This document shows positions 2,387-38,866 of a DNA stretch of 64,000 nucleotides, piece by piece. The stretch lies in the NCBI RefSeq assembly GCF_988242995.1, contig NZ_OZ547043.1. One strand, 5' to 3'. The notes under the pieces are model-generated. The model saw nothing but the letters and a program-made list of their open reading frames with translations, did no database searches and was not told the origin of the DNA. Position numbers and translations under genes: made by a program. The stretch's first letter is position 1. Each line of letters starts with the position of its first letter.

Positions 2387-3259
2387 TTACAGTAACGCAA
2401 CCCGCAACGACATCTCTGAAGTTGTTGATTCCCCTGGTGCAAGCGCAATGAGATCCCCCCCTTCCGGGCGATGATGGTCATCCGGCGCATGGCTCATCGG
2501 TTCCAGACAGAAGAAATCAAACGCATATCCTTTATCAAACGCCGGGTCGGAAACAAAGATGAAATAACATGGTGCAGGTGGCGTCGTTTCCATGATGATG
2601 GCATAACCCTCCTGCGGCTGCTCGATGCGGGCCTGACCATTCCATCCGGCAAAGCCATTGTTCACCCACTGGTGCGGCAACGGCGCGAGCTGGTTGAAAT
2701 CCAGCTCTTGCGGTAGCTGCTCGCAAAACTCACCCGCCAGCCACTGCTCCCGCTCCCGCCAGTAACCGCTCGCCTGCGCCTGAATCCGCGTTTGTGGTGA
2801 CAACGGAAAATAAGGATGCCAGCCGGTACCAAATGGCAGCGTCTCTGCCCCTTGATTGGTGACAGAGAGCGTCACCGTCAGCGTATCTGCCGTTAAATGA
2901 AACGCCTGACTTACCCGATAGTGATAAACACCGCTGCGATGTTCATACACCAGACACAAGCTATCTTCGCTGCGCGAGACACATTGCCACTGCCCCAGCC
3001 AGCCGTCGCCGTGCAGATAGTGCGCATCCCACTCAACATTCGGTTGCAGTTGATACTCACGCCCCTGCCAGACAAAACGATTGCCGCTCACCCGGTTTGC
3101 AAACGGCACCAGCGGAAAACAAGAGGCATCGGTTGCCACACCGCTTTTTTTACCGGGACGTAAGAGCGGCGTCGCGTCACGCCAGAAGCCTTCGATGACG
3201 CCGCCCCGGTCAGAAACGTCCAGCTTTAGCGGCCCGTGAGATAAGGTATAGATGGTCAT
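2387..3259 (-). CDS. yphB: aldose 1-epimerase (mutarotase) family protein
   Basis: 290-aa ORF; last gene of the co-directional yphG-yphB cluster. Confidence 0.85.
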   Translation of the reverse strand: MTIYTLSHGPLKLDVSDRGGVIEGFWRDATPLLRPGKKSGVATDASCFPLVPFANRVSGNRFVWQGREYQLQPNVEWDAHYLHGDGWLGQWQCVSRSEDSLCLVYEHRSGVYHYRVSQAFHLTADTLTVTLSVTNQGAETLPFGTGWHPYFPLSPQTRIQAQASGYWREREQWLAGEFCEQLPQELDFNQLAPLPHQWVNNGFAGWNGQARIEQPQEGYAIIMETTPPAPCYFIFVSDPAFDKGYAFDFFCLEPMSHAPDDHHRPEGGDLIALAPGESTTSEMSLRVALL

Positions 3260-3270
3260 CCGCTGACTCC

Positions 3271-4332
3271 TTAATCCGGGAAGTTAATCACAACTTTCCC
3301 GCATTTACCGCTCGCCATCAGCGCATAGGCATCTCCTGCCTGTTCCAGTGAGAAGCGATGGGTAATGGCATTACGCGGCCACAGTTTCCAGTCCGTTAAA
3401 TCGTGGGCGCATTTTTCCATATGGAATAGACTGGTCACCCAGGAGCCAATAATCCGCCGTTGATGGTGCATCAGATCGGCGCTAACCTCGAACTCCACTT
3501 TTCCGGTTTCCCCGATGTAAACCACCCGTCCCCAGTCAGCAGTGGATTGCAACGCCAGTAAGCGACCTGCGGCATTACCGGAACAATCGAGCGCAACATC
3601 CGCGCCACCGTGGGTGAGTTCGGCGATAATCTGCGGCAGACCTTCGGTGGTTGCTAAATAGCCGTGATCCATCACCCCTAACTGTTTCGCCATCGCCAGA
3701 CGTTCCGGCAGCATATCAACGCCGATGATCCTTTTTGCACCGCGACCTTTCGCCAGCATCATCGCCATCATGCCGACCGGCCCCAGACCGACCACCAGCA
3801 CGTTATCGCTACCGGAAACTTCGCCGCGCAAAATCCCTTCATACGCTGTACCAACGCCGCAACTGATAAACGCACCATCTTCATAGCTCAGCGCGTCCGG
3901 CAGCAGGATCAGATCTTTTTCTTCCGCCAGCAGGTATTCAGCATGGCCGCCGTCACGCTGCCAGCCGTAAGCCGCTTTTCCTTTGCCAGTACAAGAGATA
4001 GGAAAGCCGCGGCGGCAGTTCGGGCAAAAACCACAGCCAGAAATGTGATACACCAGCACGCGGTCGCCCTCTTTAAAATGGCGGCAGCCTTGCCCCATCG
4101 CCACAATCTGCCCGCACGGTTCATGACCGTTGATAAATCCCTGGTATAACGGTTTATCGGGTGCCGCTGCCGTGGCACGGTGTTGATGATAGATATAGTG
4201 GACATCACTTCCGCAAATCCCGGAGGATTTCATTTTGATCAGTACCTGGTTAATCCCCGGCGTCGGCACCGCAACTTCCCGCAGATCGACGGTCGAATTT
4301 CCTGGTAAATAAGCTGCCAGCATCGTTTTCAT
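3271..4332 (-). CDS. yphC: zinc-dependent alcohol/polyol dehydrogenase (MDR family)
   Basis: GHEPCGQIVAMG zinc-ligand motif and GLGPVGMMA Rossmann motif; start moved to internal ATG (353 aa). Confidence 0.85.
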   Translation of the reverse strand: MKTMLAAYLPGNSTVDLREVAVPTPGINQVLIKMKSSGICGSDVHYIYHQHRATAAAPDKPLYQGFINGHEPCGQIVAMGQGCRHFKEGDRVLVYHISGCGFCPNCRRGFPISCTGKGKAAYGWQRDGGHAEYLLAEEKDLILLPDALSYEDGAFISCGVGTAYEGILRGEVSGSDNVLVVGLGPVGMMAMMLAKGRGAKRIIGVDMLPERLAMAKQLGVMDHGYLATTEGLPQIIAELTHGGADVALDCSGNAAGRLLALQSTADWGRVVYIGETGKVEFEVSADLMHHQRRIIGSWVTSLFHMEKCAHDLTDWKLWPRNAITHRFSLEQAGDAYALMASGKCGKVVINFPD

Positions 4333-4397
4333 AAATCCCTCATTAACAATACGATTAATTTTCATCCCTGCCGCACCCGCGCCAGGGGCGTTAAGGT

Positions 4398-5396
4398 TTA
4401 GCGTTTCGCTTTACTGCTACGCTGGGTCAGCAAGATATTCGCCAGCACCGCCACCACGATGATGACGCCGCGCACCACCTGCTGGAAAAAGGAGTTAATC
4501 CCGAGCAGCACCAGACCGTTACCGATTAGCGTAATCACCAACACACCAAGCAATGTACCAAACAGGGAACCGCGACCACCGGAAAGCGCCGTACCGCCAA
4601 CCACGACCGCGGCGATGACGTCAAACTCCAGACCGTTTGCGGCACCTGCGTTACCGGAACCGAGGCGCGCCGCCAACAAAATGCCGGTCACCGCTGCTAA
4701 TAATCCCGAAAGGGTAAAAATAAGAATGCGTACCCGACGAACGTTAATACCGCACAACTGTGCTGCAGTGGCATTACCGCCAACAGCAAAAACCGAGCGC
4801 CCGAAGGCGGTTTTGCGGCTAATGAACACAAACAGCGCAAATAACACCATCATGATCAGCGCGGATACCGGCACACCGAGAAATTGTCCCCCCAGCCAGT
4901 CCAGCACTTCGTTTTCGTCAATCGGCACTGGCAAGGCGTTCGTCATAAACAGCCCCATTCCGCGCAGGGCGCTCCACAGCCCCAGCGTGGCCACGAAACT
5001 TGGCACGTTAAACACGCCGCGCAGCACCCCGGCGAGCGTTCCCATCAGCGCGCCTAACAGCAACACCAGCAGACAAGCAATCGCCAACGGAACTTCAAAT
5101 TGCAGCAAAAATGCCAGGCACACCGAGACAAAAGCCACCATCGGCCCAACGCTGACATCAATTTCACCGGAGATAATAATCAGCGTCATCGCCCAGGCGG
5201 CAATCCCAATGGTGGCGGCATCGCGCAGCACGTTCATCTGGTTATTCAATGAGATAAAGCCCGGCGCGTTCAGGGAGAAGACCAGATAAAGAATGGCGAT
5301 CACCACCAGCAAACCGATCTCATTAATATGGCGACTGACAAATTGTTTGAGCGAGACGCTCTTGCCCTGCGGCAATGGTAATGACGAAGCAGACAT
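4398..5396 (-). CDS. yphD: ABC transporter permease (monosaccharide, CUT2 type)
   Basis: 332-aa polytopic hydrophobic ORF between the ATPase and dehydrogenase genes. Confidence 0.88.
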   Translation of the reverse strand: MSASSLPLPQGKSVSLKQFVSRHINEIGLLVVIAILYLVFSLNAPGFISLNNQMNVLRDAATIGIAAWAMTLIIISGEIDVSVGPMVAFVSVCLAFLLQFEVPLAIACLLVLLLGALMGTLAGVLRGVFNVPSFVATLGLWSALRGMGLFMTNALPVPIDENEVLDWLGGQFLGVPVSALIMMVLFALFVFISRKTAFGRSVFAVGGNATAAQLCGINVRRVRILIFTLSGLLAAVTGILLAARLGSGNAGAANGLEFDVIAAVVVGGTALSGGRGSLFGTLLGVLVITLIGNGLVLLGINSFFQQVVRGVIIVVAVLANILLTQRSSKAKR

Positions 5397-5420
5397 CTTC
5401 AGGTTCCTCGGTAAAATTCA

Positions 5421-6932
5421 TCAGTGCACAGACAGAATGGCGGACATCAGCTCATCCACATTGACCGGCGAGTGAAACTCCTGCGAGAACGTACCGTGCT
5501 GTAATAACAGGATGCGGTCACACACCAGCGGCAACTCCTCCACTTCACTGGAGATAAACACCACACTTTTTCCTTCGGCAGCCAGCTCGCGGACAATACG
5601 GTAAATCTGCTGTTTGGCTTCGATATCGACGCCACGCGTTGGCTCGTCGAGCAACAAAATCTGGCTGGCGGCATAGACCCAACGACCGATCACCACTTTT
5701 TGCTGATTGCCGCCAGAAAGCGTGCCGATGGGCGTTTCGCTACTGGCGGCCTTGACCGTCATCCGCTGCATCACCTCTTCGGTCAGGCGGCGGATGGTGG
5801 ACCATTGCAGCACACCGTTGGCGCTGATTTTTTGCCGATTGGTCAGCACTGTATTTTCGTCAACGCCCAGCCAGGGAATGATCCCCGCTTCTTTGCGGTT
5901 TTCTGGCGTATAGCCAATGCCGCGTTTCAGCATGTCGCCGTAATCGGGGCGCGTGATTTTCTCGCCGTTGATAACAATTTCGCCCTGTTCATACGTCTCC
6001 AGCCCAACTATGGCTTTCAACAATTCACTGCGCCCTGCCCCCAGCAGGCCAGCAATGCCGAGCACTTCGCCACGACGGAGCGTAAAGCTGATATCCTCCA
6101 GCTTGGGCTTATGGCGTAACGCACGGACTTCCAGCACAGCCTGATCGACAATTTCCTGAGGGGAAACCGGCGCAATATCAACGTGATCGCGCCCGAGCAT
6201 TAGCGACACAATATGATGCGTGGAGGTGTTTTCGAGCATCACATCGCCCGCTACCTGACCATCGCGCATAACGGTGGCACAGGAGGCAATGCGGCGGATT
6301 TCTTCCATCCGGTGGCTGACATAAATCACCGCCACGCCCAGTGCCGACATCTTTTTAACCGCGCTGATCACCAGTTCAACTTCCGCACTGGCAAGCGAAC
6401 TGGTAGGTTCATCAAGAATGACCACGCGCGGCTCGCCCTTCATCACCCGCGCAATTTCCACCAGTTGCTTTTGCGCCGGGCTTAGCGTTGAAACAAGTTG
6501 TTCAGGGCTAACGTCAACGCCCAGCGCCTGTAAGCAACGTTGGGCATCCTGCGCCATTTGCAGGTAATCAATCATGCCGTTGCGGCGGGGCCACTGACCG
6601 AGGCAGAGGTTTTCCGCCACCGTCAGTCCCTCCACCAGACTTAACTCCTGATAAACCGCACGAACCCCCAGTTCAGCGGCACGGCGAGTCAACGTAGCTT
6701 CGTCACCTTCCAGTCGCGTCTCGCCAATCCAGATATCACCGCTATCCGGACGTTCACTGCCGGTAAGCATTCGAATGAGGGTCGATTTGCCCGCGCCGTT
6801 TTTGCCTAACAGCGCACGAACTTCTCCTTTATTGAGCGTGAAGTTAACGTTATCCAGCGCAACGACGCCGGGATAACGCTTATTTCCAGCTACCACTATT
6901 GCTACCGGGACTGCCTCTGTTGCCGTGAACAT
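5421..6932 (-). CDS. yphE: ABC transporter ATP-binding protein with duplicated ATPase domains
   Basis: 503 aa with two Walker A motifs (GKNGAGKST and GLLGAGRSEL), as in RbsA/MglA-type sugar importers. Confidence 0.9.
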   Translation of the reverse strand: MFTATEAVPVAIVVAGNKRYPGVVALDNVNFTLNKGEVRALLGKNGAGKSTLIRMLTGSERPDSGDIWIGETRLEGDEATLTRRAAELGVRAVYQELSLVEGLTVAENLCLGQWPRRNGMIDYLQMAQDAQRCLQALGVDVSPEQLVSTLSPAQKQLVEIARVMKGEPRVVILDEPTSSLASAEVELVISAVKKMSALGVAVIYVSHRMEEIRRIASCATVMRDGQVAGDVMLENTSTHHIVSLMLGRDHVDIAPVSPQEIVDQAVLEVRALRHKPKLEDISFTLRRGEVLGIAGLLGAGRSELLKAIVGLETYEQGEIVINGEKITRPDYGDMLKRGIGYTPENRKEAGIIPWLGVDENTVLTNRQKISANGVLQWSTIRRLTEEVMQRMTVKAASSETPIGTLSGGNQQKVVIGRWVYAASQILLLDEPTRGVDIEAKQQIYRIVRELAAEGKSVVFISSEVEELPLVCDRILLLQHGTFSQEFHSPVNVDELMSAILSVH

Positions 6933-6954
6933 AGGGACCTCTGCGAATCAGCGA

Positions 6955-7938
6955 TTAGGGCAGACCATCAACGTGCGTTGCCAGCCACTGTTTACCGTCT
7001 TCCGTTTTGGTATAGAGATCGATAGGCACCTGAATCACTTTTTCACCGTCGGCTTGTTTATTGATAACCTTCAAAGTTTGCGCGAAAACAGCATTGCCCA
7101 TTTTCTTACCGGAAATATCCACCACCGCTTTCAGCACCTGATTGTTTTCCAGCTCCTGAGCAATTTCAGTGGTCATATCCGAACCGAAAACAGCAATTTT
7201 TCCGGTCTGATTTTGATTACGTACCGCTTTTACCGCGCCGAGTGTCGCACCGCCCGATTCCCCCATAATGGCGTTGAGATCCGGCGTGGAGATAATTAGT
7301 TTTTCACCAACGGAAATCGCTTTATCTAAAACAGTCCCTTCCTGATTAGCGACAATTTGCGCGCCGGGAACACGGATTTTTAATACTTCTTCAAATCCTT
7401 TACGGCGCTGCACACAAACTTCAAAGGCTTCGCAATTGATGACGGCAATTTTCGGCTGGTCAATTTTGTTGGCAATAAAATAATCGGCGGCAGCGTTACC
7501 CAGTTTTTTACCAAATTCCAGCGGATCGCCGACCAGATACGCCGAGACATATTTATCGACGCCTTTTTGATTAATACAGGTGTTGTAGCAAATTACCGGA
7601 ATACCCGCTTCACTGGCGCGACGAACGGTACGGCTACTGCCATTTTCAGACACTGCCGATAAAATAATGGCATCGACATTACGCGCCACGAGGGTATCAA
7701 CAAAGGTACTTTCTTTCGAAATATCACCCTGGGCGTTAGTTTCAATTAACTGTACCTGTACTGAAGAATCTTTTGCCGCATCCTGAACGCCCTGACGCAC
7801 ACCAGCGTAATATCCCTGGGTATCAAGGTATATTGCGCCAATGGTCATTTCTTTATCCGCAGCCCTGGCAAATAGTGCGCTACCTAATAGCGTAGCCATT
7901 AATAATAGATTACGGGTTGTTCTCATTTTTTTAGGCAT
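6955..7938 (-). CDS. yphF: periplasmic sugar-binding protein of ABC transporter
   Basis: 327-aa ORF with N-terminal signal peptide (MRTTRNLLLMATLLGSALFARA). Confidence 0.88.
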   Translation of the reverse strand: MPKKMRTTRNLLLMATLLGSALFARAADKEMTIGAIYLDTQGYYAGVRQGVQDAAKDSSVQVQLIETNAQGDISKESTFVDTLVARNVDAIILSAVSENGSSRTVRRASEAGIPVICYNTCINQKGVDKYVSAYLVGDPLEFGKKLGNAAADYFIANKIDQPKIAVINCEAFEVCVQRRKGFEEVLKIRVPGAQIVANQEGTVLDKAISVGEKLIISTPDLNAIMGESGGATLGAVKAVRNQNQTGKIAVFGSDMTTEIAQELENNQVLKAVVDISGKKMGNAVFAQTLKVINKQADGEKVIQVPIDLYTKTEDGKQWLATHVDGLP

Positions 7939-8034
7939 AGTACCTCCTGTAGGGTTTTTATTTACAACGGCTTATTTTAATTATTTGAGCGTGAGCGGCA
8001 GCGCGTGCCGCTCAAATATTACAGTTAATAAGGT

Positions 8035-11000
8035 TTAGCGAACGCGGTTAAAAATAAAAGGCATCACGGTGGTGAATAATGCTGCTTTCGGCCAGGCCGG
8101 ATTAATCGCCGTCAATTCAGCGCGAGCAGATTCATATTGCGCAACCTCCCCTAGTCCCGCGGACGCCAGCATCGCCACCATCAGGCATTTTTCTTTATGC
8201 TGCTGTTGTAAATCGCCATACAGCGACAACAGGTCAGGTTGCGAGACGGCAAAGAAATCCGCTTCGATACTGGTTTTCGCCATCTCTTGCGCCCACAGTT
8301 TCATTTCACTAAACAGTTGCTGTGCGGTGTGTTGTTCGCCCAGCAGTCGCAGCGCCATTCCTTGCCAGAAGAGATAATCAACCGGCTGATCGTTGTAATA
8401 ACTGTGGATGTTAATGGTGCGATCGCCGGTCGCCGCCAGACGTAAACAACGCGTCGCTTCAGTTTCATCGCCCTGCGCGTTGGCGCATATCGCCTGCCAG
8501 AACCAGATGTCGTTATCAGTTTGCCCCGGTAAACGGCCTTCGCTTAAATTCTCCGGATAATGCAGCGCGGCATGAAGCAGTTCGCTGGCCTGCTGCGGCT
8601 CTCTGGCATCAAGATGCTGCCAGGCGCGTAATAACTGGTTGAGGATAAACTGACTGGTGATCTTCCCTTCCCCGCCTTCCCACGGGTGGAATTTGCGCGT
8701 GGCGAGAATGTCCGCCGCTTTGTCTGCCTGACCCGTGAGATGCCACAAATTGAGCAGTTCTGCGGTCATGTCGTCGCGTTTCAGCGCAATTTCCAGATTA
8801 TTTTCCAGACGCGCCAGTCGTTTCTCCGGTGTGGCTCCACTTAACTTATCCAGCAAATCCCGTTCGAAAAGCAGACGTGCATCCTGCGGCGCAAGCTGAT
8901 AAGCATTATCAAGATAACGCGCGGCCAGCTCATAATCGTGTTGCTTATTCCACGCATGGATCGCTAACCCGCGCCAACCGTCGGCAAACTCCGGCGACAT
9001 CTCTACGCAACGTTGCCATAAAGTAATGGCTTTGTTGTAGCTGCGCTTGTTGTAGTAGAAGCAGGCCAGTAAATGACGGGCAAACCAGCACTCTTCAATA
9101 CTCTCCAGCGCCGCCACTTCTTCCAGCGTATTCGGGAAACGGACAAACTGCGGGAAGACATCAATGGCTTTTGCGACCAGTTCGCCGCGTTCGGCTTTCG
9201 GCAGCAAGCTGGCTTGCAGGTAAAGCGGCAGCGTGCGCTGGCAGTCCAGTGCGTTCAGCATCTCTGCCGCCAGGGTGGGCATTCCCCAGTTAATCAGTTG
9301 CCCGGCGGTCATCAGGGCGTTAACGTCGCGTCCCTGACACAGACCGCGCCACTGCGCGAGGGCTGATTCGCTACGACCATCGAACCAGTTCAGCCACCAC
9401 AGAGTGGCGTTCAGCGGATAATCGCGCAGCAGTTTCTCGCGCTGCAAACGCGCGTTGTCCTGACGACCACTTAACACCAGCAGCAGATTATGCAGGCAAA
9501 GCACTTCCTGATTGGTTGGGCAGGCGCGAAGACTTTGTTGGCAAAAATCCAGACCAGCATCGAAGTGACCATTACGCGTCGCCAGTCGTGCCAGACCATA
9601 ATAGCCGCCTGCTTTACTATTGCCGCTCCAGACCGCACGCCAGAAATCCTCTTCGGCTTGTTGATATTGTCCCTGACGTTCGTAAGCACTGGCGCGAATC
9701 AAACTGGCCTGTCCGCACTGCGGATTTTTGTTCAGCGCATGTGCGCGTTTCAGCGCCTGAGTGGCATACGCCACCGCTTGCGGGAAATCGGCGCGGTTAT
9801 ATTCCAGCATCGCCAGCGCCAGGTTACAGCGATAATCCAGCGGATCCAGCGCCACGCCGCGCAGGTAGTAATCGAACGGTGAACGGCTGGCGTGATGATA
9901 TTGCTCCAGATGCTGACCGATAAACCAGGCTTCATCTGTACTGGTAATGTCTTGTGCTGCCAGTGGCGCTTTGGCGACGTCCGGCAACGGCAACTCTTGC
10001 GGCTGATGTTCCTGATAACTCAGTATGATATTGCCGTCGGCATCGGAGAGTTCAATGGTCAGCCTTTCAGGATTGATACCGTGCAACACGCCCTGGATGG
10101 CGGTCGCTGGTGTCAGGGCCACGGCATCATCGAGTAACGCGTTGCATTTGCCGATTTCGCGGATCGCCAGACGGTATCCTTTCAACGGAGAGATGGCATA
10201 CAGCCCCCACTCAATCCCCCGCTCACTACGCTGGAGTTTTATCACCGCATCGCGGGAGGCATTTTGCACCATGCCCAGAGAATGATAAGGCAGGAAATAC
10301 TGCTCGAAACGCTTCTCTTCGTACGCATCAAGCCAGGTAAAATCAGGCTGGTTATCGGCAAAAATACCGGTCATCAGTTCGATATACGGGCCGTTATTGT
10401 CGGTCAGACTCTTATCCCACGCCTGGCCAAATTCACTGTGTCCCCAACTCCACTGTTTTTTACCTGGCGCAATATGGTGGTTGGCAACGTGCAGCAAACC
10501 GCCATCTTCATCGTGACACCACGCGCCAACAAAATCGTACTGTGATTTTTCAGCCATATATGAGGTTGGAACAGGCACATTTTTATAGCGAGAAATGTCC
10601 ACTCCAGCGGAGTAGTCCACTTTGTAGTAAGTGCCGGTGGCGATGGGGAAAGCAGAGACGGCCCGTTTGCCGTGATCAAACACCGCAGTCACATCCGGTG
10701 GGAAAACGCTCTGATGCCCTTCACCCCCTTTCACTGCCGGGTTGGCCCACCACAAGAAATGACGCGGCGTGGCGTTGCCGTTATAGACGCGGCTGGCGAT
10801 TTCCAGCGCCGCCCGGTCAGGACGCAGGGTGAAACCTGTCATCACCTGTAAACCATGCATCGGCTCCGTTTCGCCTACCCACACCGTCTGTGCGCCGTCT
10901 TCATGGGCTTCGAGGGTGAAATCAACGGGCATAAAGGTGGTCGGGCGATGGTGTTGCGGCCAGTTAAACTCAATCCCGCCGGAGATCCACGGTCCCAGCA

Positions 11001-11316
11001 GCCCCACCAGCGCCGGTTTAATGACTTCATTGTGATAGACAAAATCGCGCTGTTTCACTTTATCCCACGCGCGATGCACCCGACCGCCCAGTTCCGGCAG
11101 GATCATCACTTTGATGTAGTCGTTTTCCAGCCACACCGCCTGCCAGGATTTCAGGGTTTTCTGCTCGCTCAGCGTATCGGTCACGCCGTAGGGATAAACC
11201 GCGCCGGACGATCCCTGATAAACGCGATTTTCCAGGAACATGGGATGTATATCCTGCGGCCCGGTTTCATAGGTCGGGATCTCAACGCGCTCTTGCCACA
11301 CTTTTACTGGAGTCAT
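8035..11316 (-). CDS. yphG: large two-domain protein: N-terminal ~450-aa domain of unknown function plus long C-terminal TPR-like helical repeat region
   Basis: Track ORF 8035-11409 starts at TTG; I prefer ATG at 11316 because it is preceded by GAGGG; alternative start 11409 cannot be excluded. Confidence 0.8.
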   Translation of the reverse strand: MTPVKVWQERVEIPTYETGPQDIHPMFLENRVYQGSSGAVYPYGVTDTLSEQKTLKSWQAVWLENDYIKVMILPELGGRVHRAWDKVKQRDFVYHNEVIKPALVGLLGPWISGGIEFNWPQHHRPTTFMPVDFTLEAHEDGAQTVWVGETEPMHGLQVMTGFTLRPDRAALEIASRVYNGNATPRHFLWWANPAVKGGEGHQSVFPPDVTAVFDHGKRAVSAFPIATGTYYKVDYSAGVDISRYKNVPVPTSYMAEKSQYDFVGAWCHDEDGGLLHVANHHIAPGKKQWSWGHSEFGQAWDKSLTDNNGPYIELMTGIFADNQPDFTWLDAYEEKRFEQYFLPYHSLGMVQNASRDAVIKLQRSERGIEWGLYAISPLKGYRLAIREIGKCNALLDDAVALTPATAIQGVLHGINPERLTIELSDADGNIILSYQEHQPQELPLPDVAKAPLAAQDITSTDEAWFIGQHLEQYHHASRSPFDYYLRGVALDPLDYRCNLALAMLEYNRADFPQAVAYATQALKRAHALNKNPQCGQASLIRASAYERQGQYQQAEEDFWRAVWSGNSKAGGYYGLARLATRNGHFDAGLDFCQQSLRACPTNQEVLCLHNLLLVLSGRQDNARLQREKLLRDYPLNATLWWLNWFDGRSESALAQWRGLCQGRDVNALMTAGQLINWGMPTLAAEMLNALDCQRTLPLYLQASLLPKAERGELVAKAIDVFPQFVRFPNTLEEVAALESIEECWFARHLLACFYYNKRSYNKAITLWQRCVEMSPEFADGWRGLAIHAWNKQHDYELAARYLDNAYQLAPQDARLLFERDLLDKLSGATPEKRLARLENNLEIALKRDDMTAELLNLWHLTGQADKAADILATRKFHPWEGGEGKITSQFILNQLLRAWQHLDAREPQQASELLHAALHYPENLSEGRLPGQTDNDIWFWQAICANAQGDETEATRCLRLAATGDRTINIHSYYNDQPVDYLFWQGMALRLLGEQHTAQQLFSEMKLWAQEMAKTSIEADFFAVSQPDLLSLYGDLQQQHKEKCLMVAMLASAGLGEVAQYESARAELTAINPAWPKAALFTTVMPFIFNRVR

Positions 11317-11433
11317 GGTGCCCTCAATATTAACAAGACATACTGAATTAAAAGATTTGTGGCAGTGTATTGAACAATCTGGCAATGTTTTCGCGGAATA
11401 ATCACGCAATTAACTAAACAAGGTTTAGTGAAG

Positions 11434-12627
11434 ATGAGAGCCTGCATTAATAATCAACAGATTCGCCACCATAACAAATGCGTGATTCTGGAACTGCTGT
11501 ACCGGCAAAAGCGCGCCAATAAATCAACCCTGGCCCGGCTGGCGCAAATTTCGATTCCGGCGGTCAGTAATATTTTGCAGGAACTGGAAAGCGAAAAACG
11601 GGTGGTGAATATCGACGATGAAAGCCAGACGCGCGGGCATAGTAGCGGTACATGGCTGATTGCGCCGGAAGGTGACTGGACGCTGTGCCTGAACGTGACG
11701 CCCACCAGTATTGAGTGTCAGGTCGCTAACGCCTGTTTAAGTCCGAAAGGTGAATTTGAGTATTTACAGATTGATGCACCGACGCCGCAGGCGCTGCTGT
11801 CCGAAATCGAAAAATGCTGGCATCGCCACCGTAAATTGTGGCCGGACCGCACCATCAATCTGGCGCTGGCAATCCACGGTCAGGTTGATCCTGTGACCGG
11901 CGTGTCGCAAACCATGCCGCAAGCGCCCTGGACAACGCCGGTTGAGGTAAAATATCTGCTGGAAGAGAAGCTCGGCATTCGGGTGATGGTCGATAATGAC
12001 TGCGTGATGCTGGCGCTGGCGGAGAAATGGCAAAATAATTCGCAGGGCCGGGATTTCTGCGTGATCAACGTTGATTACGGCATTGGCTCGTCGTTCGTGA
12101 TTAACGAGCAAATTTATCGCGGCAGTTTGTATGGTAGCGGACAGATTGGTCACACCATCGTTAATCCGGATGGCGTCGTCTGCGACTGCGGACGTTATGG
12201 CTGCCTGGAAACCGTCGCCTCGTTAAGCGCATTAAAAAAACAGGCGCGGGTATGGCTAAAATCACAACCGGTTAATACTCAGCTTGATCCTGAAAAACTG
12301 ACTACCGCGCAGTTAATCGCTGCCTGGCAGAGTGGAGAACCGTGGATCACCAGTTGGGTTGATCACTCTGCCAACGCCATTGGTTTGAGTCTGTATAACT
12401 TCCTCAACATCCTCAATATTAATCAGATTTGGTTGTACGGTCGCAGTTGTGCCTTTGGTGAGAACTGGCTTAATACCATTATTCGCCAGACGGGATTTAA
12501 CCCGTTCGACCGCGACGAAGGACCGAGCGTGAAAGCGACGAAAATTGGCTTTGGGCAATTAAGCCGCGCACAACAGGTGCTGGGGATTGGCTATTTGTAT
12601 GTTGAGGCGCAGTTACGGCAGATTTGA
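11434..12627 (+). CDS. yphH: ROK-family (NagC/XylR-like) transcriptional regulator
   Basis: ROK zinc motif CDCGRYGCLE; N-terminal helix-turn-helix region; divergent from yphG; ATG at 11434 gives 397 aa. Confidence 0.85.
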   Translation: MRACINNQQIRHHNKCVILELLYRQKRANKSTLARLAQISIPAVSNILQELESEKRVVNIDDESQTRGHSSGTWLIAPEGDWTLCLNVTPTSIECQVANACLSPKGEFEYLQIDAPTPQALLSEIEKCWHRHRKLWPDRTINLALAIHGQVDPVTGVSQTMPQAPWTTPVEVKYLLEEKLGIRVMVDNDCVMLALAEKWQNNSQGRDFCVINVDYGIGSSFVINEQIYRGSLYGSGQIGHTIVNPDGVVCDCGRYGCLETVASLSALKKQARVWLKSQPVNTQLDPEKLTTAQLIAAWQSGEPWITSWVDHSANAIGLSLYNFLNILNINQIWLYGRSCAFGENWLNTIIRQTGFNPFDRDEGPSVKATKIGFGQLSRAQQVLGIGYLYVEAQLRQI

Positions 12628-38620: not shown

Positions 38621-38866
38621 TATCTATCATTATAAGTCTACAGAATCTGAACATCGCATTATCTGTGTAGAAATGCCCATTTAACTGCCTGAAGAGTAAC
38701 CCAACGGCCTTTTTATTTCACCACCTAATCCTCCACCAGCCAGTAACTTCTCTTTTTCTCGCCGCCCTGCGTCAACGTGTTTAGCAACTGTAACAAATAT
38801 TAAAATAGCAGGTGTTTATCCGCACAACATGATGCTATGCTGACCAAACCATGTTTAGTAAATTAA

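What the first reader, a model, noticed from the sequence alone, without database searches (positions are those of the whole stretch)
8035..11409. YphG: very large protein with uncertain start and unusual domain pairing
The track ORF (1124 aa) begins at a TTG only 18-24 bp from divergent yphH, leaving almost no room for two promoters. The in-frame ATG at 11316 has a GAGGG ribosome-binding site and gives a 117-bp intergenic region. The N-terminal 450 aa look beta-rich (aromatic and Gly-rich) and the C-terminal 650 aa are helical repeats rich in Leu, Ala and Trp. A TPR array fused to a putative enzymatic or binding domain inside a sugar-transport operon is atypical. The protein has no signal peptide.
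Basis: partly seen in the sequence, partly recalled or inferred. Interest (0 to 1): 0.5.

Follow-up and report, generated by a model that had tools for sequence, protein, structure and literature searches.

The report
YphG: mutarotase-fold domain plus TPR solenoid
This is the E. coli gene yphG, a 1093-residue cytoplasmic protein of unknown function that starts at the ATG (as current RefSeq annotation already has it) and joins a very conserved sugar-mutarotase-like domain to a long TPR helical array, an architecture shared by a large family that sits next to sugar transporters in at least four bacterial phyla.

The parts
8035..11316 (-). yphG coding sequence, 1093 aa plus stop, starting at ATG 11316
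   Evidence: RefSeq CDS in L001 9001-12282 corresponds to window 8035-11316. All homologues start at this position. dN/dS against E. albertii is 0.063.
10282..11316 (-). N-terminal DUF5107 domain (aa 1-345) with a galactose-mutarotase-like beta-supersandwich fold; the presumed sugar-binding or catalytic domain
9997..10269 (-). Middle all-beta domain (aa about 350-440), poorly conserved in sequence
   Evidence: Eight strands between residues 357 and 435 at pLDDT above 90. Identity across phyla is about 25% or undetectable. This is the least conserved block.
8038..9939 (-). C-terminal TPR solenoid (aa 460-1093, about 17-18 helical hairpins) with conserved inter-helix loops: FHPWEGGEG 876-884, YND 974-976, FAVSxP 1022-1027
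11317..11409 (-). The 93-nt upstream 'extension' of the TTG ORF: non-coding 5' leader and promoter region, not translated
   Evidence: In-frame stops or no start codon in the Enterobacter-labelled, Klebsiella and Budvicia loci. No Shine-Dalgarno sequence before the TTG.
11321..11325 (-). Shine-Dalgarno GAGGG of yphG
   Evidence: Read from the sequence. The block TTGAGGG is conserved in Klebsiella and the Enterobacter-labelled loci.
11392..11410 (-). Conserved intergenic block ATTGCGTGATTATTCCGCG, a candidate regulatory site that contains the TTG
   Evidence: Conserved as DNA from E. coli to Klebsiella and Budvicia even where the reading frame is broken.
11410..11432 (.). 23-bp palindrome TTCACTAAAC-CTT-GTTTAGTTAA abutting the yphH start; candidate YphH (ROK) operator
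   Evidence: Inverted repeat, 10-nt arms, 90% complementary. A similar site with up to 3 mismatches (of 14 specified positions) lies 2-6 nt upstream of the called ROK gene start in 12 of 17 ROK-linked loci. It is the only perfect match in the window.
11434..12627 (+). yphH, divergent ROK-family regulator
   Evidence: RefSeq annotation. NagC/Mlc-like NCBIfam hits lie below the equivalog cut-offs. Described as an uncharacterised third ROK repressor of E. coli (PMC4288165).
6955..7938 (-). yphF, periplasmic sugar-binding protein of a CUT2-type ABC transporter
5421..6932 (-). yphE, sugar ABC transporter ATPase
4398..5396 (-). yphD, ABC transporter permease
3271..4365 (-). yphC, Zn-dependent alcohol/polyol dehydrogenase family
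   Evidence: The coordinates are the L001 coordinates minus 966.
2387..3259 (-). yphB, small aldose 1-epimerase (its structure is PDB 3nre)

Best explanation
yphG is translated from ATG 11316 into a 1093-aa cytoplasmic protein. It is the first gene of the yphGFEDCB sugar-uptake operon and is transcribed divergently from the ROK regulator gene yphH. The 117-bp intergenic region carries conserved regulatory blocks, including a palindrome next to the yphH start. The protein has three parts. The first is a galactose-mutarotase-fold DUF5107 domain (aa 1-345). The second is a small beta-sandwich (about aa 350-440). The third is a TPR solenoid of about 630 aa. Inferred mechanism: the N-domain binds an aldose or small glycoside imported by the adjacent transporter in the mutarotase-type pocket. 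It acts at or near the anomeric centre using the retained Glu (E313) and His pair (H122/H123), together with family-specific invariant residues (N192, H215, K287, D325). The product is a common aldose, and the operon's canonical mutarotase (YphB) then equilibrates its anomers for housekeeping catabolism. The TPR solenoid acts as a built-in scaffold or lid and supplies a few invariant loops, such as WEGGEG. The gene neighbourhoods in other phyla point to a galactose-related sugar, but the substrate and reaction are not established. Shown: the start site, the fold, the conservation and the genomic context. Inferred: catalysis, residue roles, substrate class and operator function.
For: Start site. 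RefSeq annotates the CDS from the ATG. About 110 homologues from many genera begin M-x-x-VKVWQE at that position. In-frame stops or absent start codons occur upstream in loci whose N-domains are 84-95% identical, while DNA blocks stay conserved. The intergenic length to the called ROK gene is 109-117 bp in 12 of the 17 ROK-linked loci.

Functional constraint. The N-domain is 65-68% identical across four phyla, against 28-30% for the C-half. dN/dS is 0.014-0.033 for the N-domain and 0.08-0.10 for the C-half. Polar and aromatic residues conserved at 95% or more across 104 diverse representatives are E64, D85, K100, W110, E116, H122, H123, R124, N179, N192, H215, K287, W291, W300, Y311, E313, N322, Q323 and D325.

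Context. In 80 loci the neighbours are an MFS sugar porter, adjacent and on the same strand, in 50; AraC in 44; ROK in 19; aldose 1-epimerases in 28-32; GH2 in 29; and also GH35, GH36 and GH97. K. oxytoca has a minimal operon of ROK | YphG, a XylE-like MFS and a mutarotase. The GH2 neighbour belongs to subfamily GH2_20, which is reported as a beta-galactosidase.
Confidence: 0.55

Rival explanations
1. YphG is a non-catalytic sugar sensor or scaffold. The mutarotase-like domain only binds a sugar, and the TPR solenoid transmits that signal to a partner (regulator, transporter or another enzyme).
Against: The partner genes vary (AraC or ROK, MFS or ABC) while the N-domain stays 65-68% identical, which argues against a co-evolving protein partner. 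The invariant set is rich in charged and His residues, typical of active sites. dN/dS of 0.014 is enzyme-like.
Confidence: 0.2
2. YphG is simply a second, large aldose 1-epimerase that interconverts the anomers of the imported sugar.
Against: No Pfam Aldose_epim hit at E up to 0.1. hhalign against canonical GalM and YphB-type profiles is not significant. The position of the mutarotase acid His holds an invariant Asn. The operons usually already encode a canonical mutarotase. A TPR addition of 750 aa is unexplained.
Confidence: 0.1
3. YphG is a glycoside hydrolase or polysaccharide lyase of the 'beta-supersandwich plus alpha/alpha-toroid' type, with the helical half as the catalytic domain.
Confidence: 0.07
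4. Translation starts at TTG 11409 and gives the 1124-aa protein.
For: The frame is open from the TTG in E. coli and E. albertii.
Against: There is no Shine-Dalgarno sequence. The TTG lies inside a conserved regulatory block, 1 nt from a palindrome and 24 nt from the yphH ATG. The extension is broken by stops or lacks a start codon in close relatives. All homologues and RefSeq use the ATG. This allele's 1124-aa form is absent from a collection of 15 billion proteins.
Confidence: 0.03

Closest known systems
Pfam DUF5107 (PF17128) / PDB 5CD6, BDI_1685 of Parabacteroides distasonis (structural-genomics 'TPR-domain containing protein')
   Different: BDI_1685 is only about 580 aa, with a short C-terminal helical domain (PF22256) in place of a solenoid of about 630 aa. 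Identity is only about 24%, so it belongs to a different clade. Neither protein has a known function.
Aldose 1-epimerases / galactose mutarotase (GalM 1l7j; YphB 3nre; YeaD 2hta; hexose-6-phosphate mutarotase 2ciq)
   Different: No significant sequence-profile match to GalM or YphB types. The acid His is replaced by an invariant Asn. There are about 750 extra residues (beta-sandwich plus TPR). It co-occurs with canonical mutarotases rather than replacing them.
DUF4432 / LacX-like mutarotase-superfamily proteins
   Same: The only family with a detectable profile-profile relationship (hhalign 93%, E 2.8e-7, over residues 60-213). These proteins are also encoded next to YphG homologues in Bacillota and in a Spirochaetales assembly.
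   Different: They are small single-domain proteins of about 300 aa that keep the His of the 'W-A-A-H' strand. Their function is also poorly defined.
TPR-plus-enzyme fusions such as O-GlcNAc transferase and SPINDLY
   Different: In those proteins the TPR is N-terminal and the catalytic domain is a GT-B glycosyltransferase. Outside the TPR motif there is no homology.

Membership tests
Pfam DUF5107 (PF17128) | Match to the family HMM above the gathering score | tested here: met
   188.9 bits against a cut-off of 24.4, residues 39-324.
Pfam DUF5107 (PF17128) | Fold equivalent to the family's solved member 5CD6 | tested here: met
   [not shown]
TPR repeat proteins | TPR sequence motifs above the Pfam cut-offs | tested here: met
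   TPR_16 58.2 bits (cut-off 32.7), TPR_2 40.6 (27), TPR_14 38.3 (23.5), TPR_1 37.3 (27.8).
TPR repeat proteins | Helical-hairpin solenoid fold | tested here: met
   [not shown]
Aldose 1-epimerase (PF01263, GalM type) | Galactose-mutarotase beta-supersandwich fold | tested here: met
   [not shown]
Aldose 1-epimerase (PF01263, GalM type) | Match to the family sequence profile | tested here: not met
   No PF01263 hit at E up to 0.1. hhalign against GalM-type and YphB-type alignments gives probability 16% or lower.
Aldose 1-epimerase (PF01263, GalM type) | Catalytic acid His in the 'N-H-x-Y-F-N' / 'W-H-P-Y-F' strand (the assignment of this role is from my own knowledge of GalM) | tested here: not met
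   The profile alignment places the invariant N192 (LWWANPA) at the His of 'LWAAH'.
Aldose 1-epimerase (PF01263, GalM type) | Catalytic base Glu in the 'C-L-E-P/T-Q' strand | tested here: inconclusive
   E313 (PYIELMTG) is at least 95% conserved and resembles the motif, but the profile alignment is low-confidence in this region.
Aldose 1-epimerase (PF01263, GalM type) | Mutarotase activity | not testable with these tools
   Requires a polarimetric or NMR assay.
Supersandwich plus (alpha/alpha)n-toroid glycoside hydrolases, phosphorylases and lyases (GH15, GH65, GH94, PL8, PL15, PL17, PL21 type) | A closed alpha/alpha toroid catalytic domain | tested here: not met
   No toroid enzyme appears among the top 50-60 matches of the full-length model; all are open TPR solenoids.
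ROK-regulated sugar-utilisation operon | A divergent ROK regulator, a palindromic operator, and transporter and sugar-enzyme genes | tested here: met
   Gene order. The conserved palindrome is shown. Binding by YphH is inferred, not shown.

The most novel reading that the evidence does not exclude
The YphG/DUF5107-TPR family is a so far unrecognised class of cytoplasmic carbohydrate-active enzyme. Its catalytic domain would be a re-tooled mutarotase fold (His replaced by Asn, with new invariant His, Lys and Asp residues), clamped by its own TPR solenoid. It would convert a galactose-related sugar or small glycoside, taken up by a dedicated XylE-like or CUT2 transporter, into an ordinary aldose. 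That step is missing from current maps of glycan utilisation in Enterobacterales, Bacteroidota and Bacillota.
Probability: 0.35. Interest if true: 0.6.

Novelty: already known. Interest (0 to 1): 0.33.

Why it matters
The finding as written, the start codon and the domain pairing, is already covered by current annotation, so it changes nothing there. What remains open is the function of a 1093-aa E. coli protein whose N-domain is 65-68% identical from E. coli to Flavobacterium, Prevotella and Paenibacillus. Its relatives form thousands of clusters and sit beside sugar porters, mutarotases and galactosidases. If it is an enzyme, it would remove one large protein from the list of E. coli genes of unknown function. 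It would also add a step to models of gut and soil glycan catabolism. The analysis here gives concrete handles for testing this: the fold, candidate catalytic residues, a minimal three-gene operon in Klebsiella oxytoca, and a candidate YphH operator.

Tried and rejected
1. Literature searches for yphG, DUF5107, PF17128, 5CD6/BDI_1685 and the yph operon genes found no functional study. The only relevant items were YphH described as an uncharacterised ROK repressor and DUF5107 listed as a marker orthogroup of phagotrophic stramenopiles.
2. The sigma-70 promoter scan of 11200-11560 found no site, so promoter positions are not assigned.
3. The first full-length AlphaFold run used 32 close orthologues and left the N-domain at pLDDT 30-45. 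It was rescued only by adding the distant BDI_1685 clade to the alignment.
4. hhalign of the N-domain against canonical GalM and YphB-type alignments was negative, and the global alignment of the C-terminal strands was unreliable.
5. I checked the WEGGEGK loop by eye for a Walker-A motif. It does not fit GxxxxGK[ST].
6. A near-copy of the palindrome at 38843-38859 lies upstream of nadB and looks like an unrelated TGTTTA/TAAACA-type site (the NadR assignment is from memory). I rejected it as a second YphH site.
7. A conserved 779-aa neighbour had no Pfam or PDB sequence match, so it gave no functional hint.
8. A rare C-terminal fusion to an endonuclease/exonuclease/phosphatase domain (P0364) was noted but is too isolated to interpret.
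9. The representative search finished too late to be used for the structure-prediction alignment. It was used only for conservation statistics.
Full report
**Identity of the locus.** The window is an E. coli chromosomal segment (hca-yph-glyA-hmp-...-nadB). The 3.4-kb region of the finding matches 5424 of 5426 complete E. coli genomes, where it is annotated 'yphG: DUF5107 domain-containing protein' next to 'yphH: ROK family protein'. In RefSeq the gene order on the minus strand is yphG-yphF-yphE-yphD-yphC-yphB. The products are a periplasmic binding protein, an ABC ATPase, a permease, a Zn-dependent dehydrogenase and an aldose 1-epimerase. yphH is divergent (family assignments).

**Check of the observation.**
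- The minus-strand ORF 8035-11409 is 1124 codons from a TTG.
- yphH begins at GTG 11428 (longest ORF) or ATG 11434 (RefSeq), which is 18 or 24 bp from the TTG.
- The in-frame ATG at 11316 is preceded by GAGGG with a 4-nt spacer and leaves a 117-bp intergenic region.
- Strands dominate up to residue 435 and helices from residue 460 onward.
- The C-half is 13.9% Leu and 13.1% Ala. Trp is about 3.2% in both halves.
- There is no signal-peptide-like or transmembrane-like hydrophobic segment.

**The start codon.** Four independent lines favour ATG 11316.
- PGAP/RefSeq already annotates the 1093-aa form. This exact protein occurs on 82 contigs under that name, whereas this allele's 1124-aa form is not in a collection of 15 billion proteins.
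- About 110 homologues at 53-83% identity are 1084-1109 aa long and all begin M-x-x-V-K-V-W-Q-E at the equivalent position.
- The 93-nt extension is not conserved as coding sequence. Locus L009, whose N-domain is 95% identical, has an in-frame stop 51 nt upstream. L010 has no start codon in its 90 open nucleotides. L011 has a stop at -39, K. pasteurii at -63 and Budvicia at -18.
- The same DNA keeps conserved blocks regardless of frame, as expected of regulatory sequence. The TTG has no Shine-Dalgarno sequence. It lies 1 nt from a 23-bp palindrome (11410-11432) that abuts the yphH start.

A similar palindrome (ACTAAAC-N3-GTTTAGT, up to 3 mismatches in 14 specified positions) lies 2-6 nt upstream of the called ROK gene start in 12 of 17 ROK-linked loci, from Escherichia to Aeromonas. 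The intergenic distance to that called start is 109-117 bp in 12 of the 17. I read the palindrome as the probable YphH operator. That is an inference. YphH is described in the literature only as an uncharacterised third ROK repressor of E. coli (PMC4288165).

**What the protein is.** Pfam finds DUF5107 (PF17128, 1.4e-55, residues 39-324) and several TPR families above their cut-offs between residues 483 and 1003. The only solved relative by sequence is 5CD6, a structural-genomics entry called 'TPR-domain containing protein' (E about 1e-20 over residues 39-344).

The pairing is not peculiar to E. coli.
- In the 80 loci kept, the N-domain is 65-68% identical to proteins from Bacteroidota, Bacillota and a Spirochaetales genome assembly. 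Nearly all of these proteins are 1084-1165 aa.
- The exhaustive HMMER search found 3912 clusters at 50% identity (880 with E up to 1e-30), and most of the best 150 are 1000-1160 aa.
- Even the distant BDI_1685 clade (about 24% identity) carries DUF5107 followed by a helical, TPR-like C-domain, PF22256.

The 'unusual domain pairing' is therefore the standard architecture of a large family.

**Where the constraint lies.** Between E. coli and other phyla, identity is 65-68% for residues 1-350, about 25% or undetectable for 351-460, and 28-30% (colinear) for 461-1093. dN/dS against E. albertii, a 95%-identical relative and K. pasteurii is 0.014-0.033 for the N-domain and 0.08-0.10 for the C-half.

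Over 104 diverse full-length representatives, the polar and aromatic residues conserved at 95% or more are E64, N65, D85, K100, W110, E116, H122, H123, R124, N179, N192, H215, K287, W291, W300, Y311, E313, N322, Q323 and D325. The C-half contributes Y483, W563, P728, R782, E818, E880 and P921. The conserved C-half residues sit in short inter-helix loops (FHPWEGGEG 876-884, YND 974-976, FAVSxP 1022-1027). AlphaFold modelled these loops with low confidence. This pattern suggests that they contact something specific, possibly the N-domain pocket, but I could not test that.

**Fold.** A first full-length model, built from 32 close orthologues, gave a confident helical half and a poor N-domain. A second model of residues 1-460 used an alignment that added the BDI_1685 clade, and it reached pLDDT 83 and pTM 0.85.

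Profile-profile comparison supports remote homology to the mutarotase superfamily through DUF4432-like proteins (93% probability, E 2.8e-7, residues 60-213). Comparison with canonical GalM or YphB-type profiles is not significant, and Pfam Aldose_epim does not hit.

In the significant part of that alignment, the His of the 'W-A-A-H' strand aligns with N192 of 'LWWANPA'. That strand corresponds to 'N-H-x-Y-F-N' in GalM, where the His is the general acid (from my own knowledge of GalM). N192 is invariant in both DUF5107 clades. The His pair H122/H123 aligns with the 'D-H-G' His. The strand 'PYIELMTG' (E313) resembles the catalytic-Glu strand 'L-E-P-x-T/S-G', but the alignment there is weak.

**Genomic context elsewhere.** I called ORFs in 80 loci and clustered the five neighbours on each side. 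Pfam was run on cluster representatives.
- The most frequent neighbour is an MFS sugar porter, found in 50 loci, usually adjacent and on the same strand. Its best NCBIfam hit is XylE, below the equivalog cut-off.
- Next come AraC regulators (44 loci), GH2 (29) and ROK regulators (19, in Enterobacterales, Aeromonas and Photobacterium).
- Aldose 1-epimerases occur in 17 + 11 loci, plus 4 DUF4432-like proteins.
- Further neighbours are SusC- and SusD-like proteins (by position, size and sequence features; not scanned against Pfam), GH36, GH35, GH30_2, sulfatases and GH97.
- The recurrent core in Bacteroidota is AraC | MFS - YphG - (GH2, GH35, GH36, GH97 or GalM).
- At the same chromosomal site as in E. 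coli, K. oxytoca has a minimal operon of ROK | YphG - MFS - mutarotase, with no ABC transporter or dehydrogenase.
- The GH2 neighbour is 1e-181 to PDB 8U01. This is subfamily GH2_20, reported to have beta-galactosidase activity on decorated substrates (PMC12243196).

Together with the GH35, GH36, GH97 and GalM neighbours, this points loosely to galactose-containing glycans.

**Most likely mechanism.** The minimal operons contain only a monosaccharide-type transporter, YphG and a mutarotase, so whatever YphG produces must feed housekeeping pathways. The N-domain has the fold and part of the active-site layout of enzymes that open sugar rings at the anomeric carbon. Its conservation is extreme, and it is independent of which regulator or transporter is adjacent.

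My best reading is therefore a cytoplasmic sugar-converting enzyme acting at or near the anomeric centre of an imported aldose or small glycoside, with YphB equilibrating the product's anomers. The reaction could be ring-form or anomer conversion, isomerisation, or cleavage of a small aglycone. The TPR solenoid would serve as an intramolecular scaffold or lid. I put about 0.55 on this overall. The start and the fold are near-certain. Catalysis is about even odds. The substrate class is a weak lead.

**Rivals.** The rivals are a non-catalytic sensor or scaffold (0.2), a plain second mutarotase (0.1), a supersandwich-plus-toroid hydrolase or lyase (0.07), and the TTG start (0.03). The evidence for and against each is given in the rival entries.

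**Novelty and score.** The gene, its family, a crystal structure of a family member and the corrected start are all in public resources. No functional study was found in the searchable literature. The finding is therefore 'already known' as a feature.

Added here are the fold assignment with its His-to-Asn change, the asymmetric constraint between the two halves, the conserved neighbourhood, the candidate operator and the minimal Klebsiella operon. It is a reasonable target among E. coli genes of unknown function, but not a surprise for a specialist. Interest is about 0.33.

Noticed in passing
window 11410-11432: A 23-bp palindrome (TTCACTAAAC-CTT-GTTTAGTTAA) lies directly upstream of the yphH ATG. 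It is conserved in position and sequence in ROK-linked loci from Escherichia to Aeromonas. It is a candidate operator of the uncharacterised ROK repressor YphH.
   Followed up: partly
L004 10001-15619 (Klebsiella oxytoca), compared with window 2387-11316: At the same chromosomal site (glyA-doxX-ROK), K. oxytoca and many other Enterobacterales carry a 55%-identical YphG followed by a XylE-like MFS porter and a mutarotase, in place of the ABC transporter and Zn-dehydrogenase. The two operon variants share only the regulator, YphG and a mutarotase.
   Followed up: partly
[not shown]
   Followed up: yes
L006 4809-4811 (E. coli strain SCPM-O-B-8794): This strain carries a CAG-to-TAG nonsense change at codon 811 of yphG, giving an 810-aa product. 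Other truncated E. coli entries (643-955 aa) appear in the homologue list, so the gene is dispensable in some strains.
   Followed up: partly
L047 6169-8508 and three other Bacteroidota loci: A conserved 779-aa protein with a short hydrophobic segment some 45 residues into the called ORF (so possibly secreted; not tested) is encoded next to AraC-MFS-YphG. It has no Pfam-A hit and no PDB sequence match. It may be an unclassified glycan-active protein.
   Followed up: partly
protein P0364 (1399 aa, metagenomic representative): One family member has a C-terminal endonuclease/exonuclease/phosphatase (PF03372) domain fused after the TPR solenoid.
   Followed up: no
window 38843-38859: A near-copy (1 mismatch) of the yphH palindrome core lies 17 nt upstream of nadB. 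It looks like an unrelated TGTTTA/TAAACA-type site (a NadR box, from memory) and not a second YphH site.
   Followed up: partly
window between about 11470 and 38876: Coordinates transferred from a K-12 MG1655 record are offset by 115 nt at nadB, so the window carries an indel relative to that record somewhere between yphH and nadB. The window strain is not MG1655; the best full-length match for the yphG region was strain CFSAN061763 at 99.9%.
   Followed up: no
literature, PMC8163842: A DUF5107 orthogroup is listed as an indicator (IndVal 0.83) of phagotrophic marine stramenopiles alongside digestive enzymes, so the family extends to eukaryotes.
   Followed up: no
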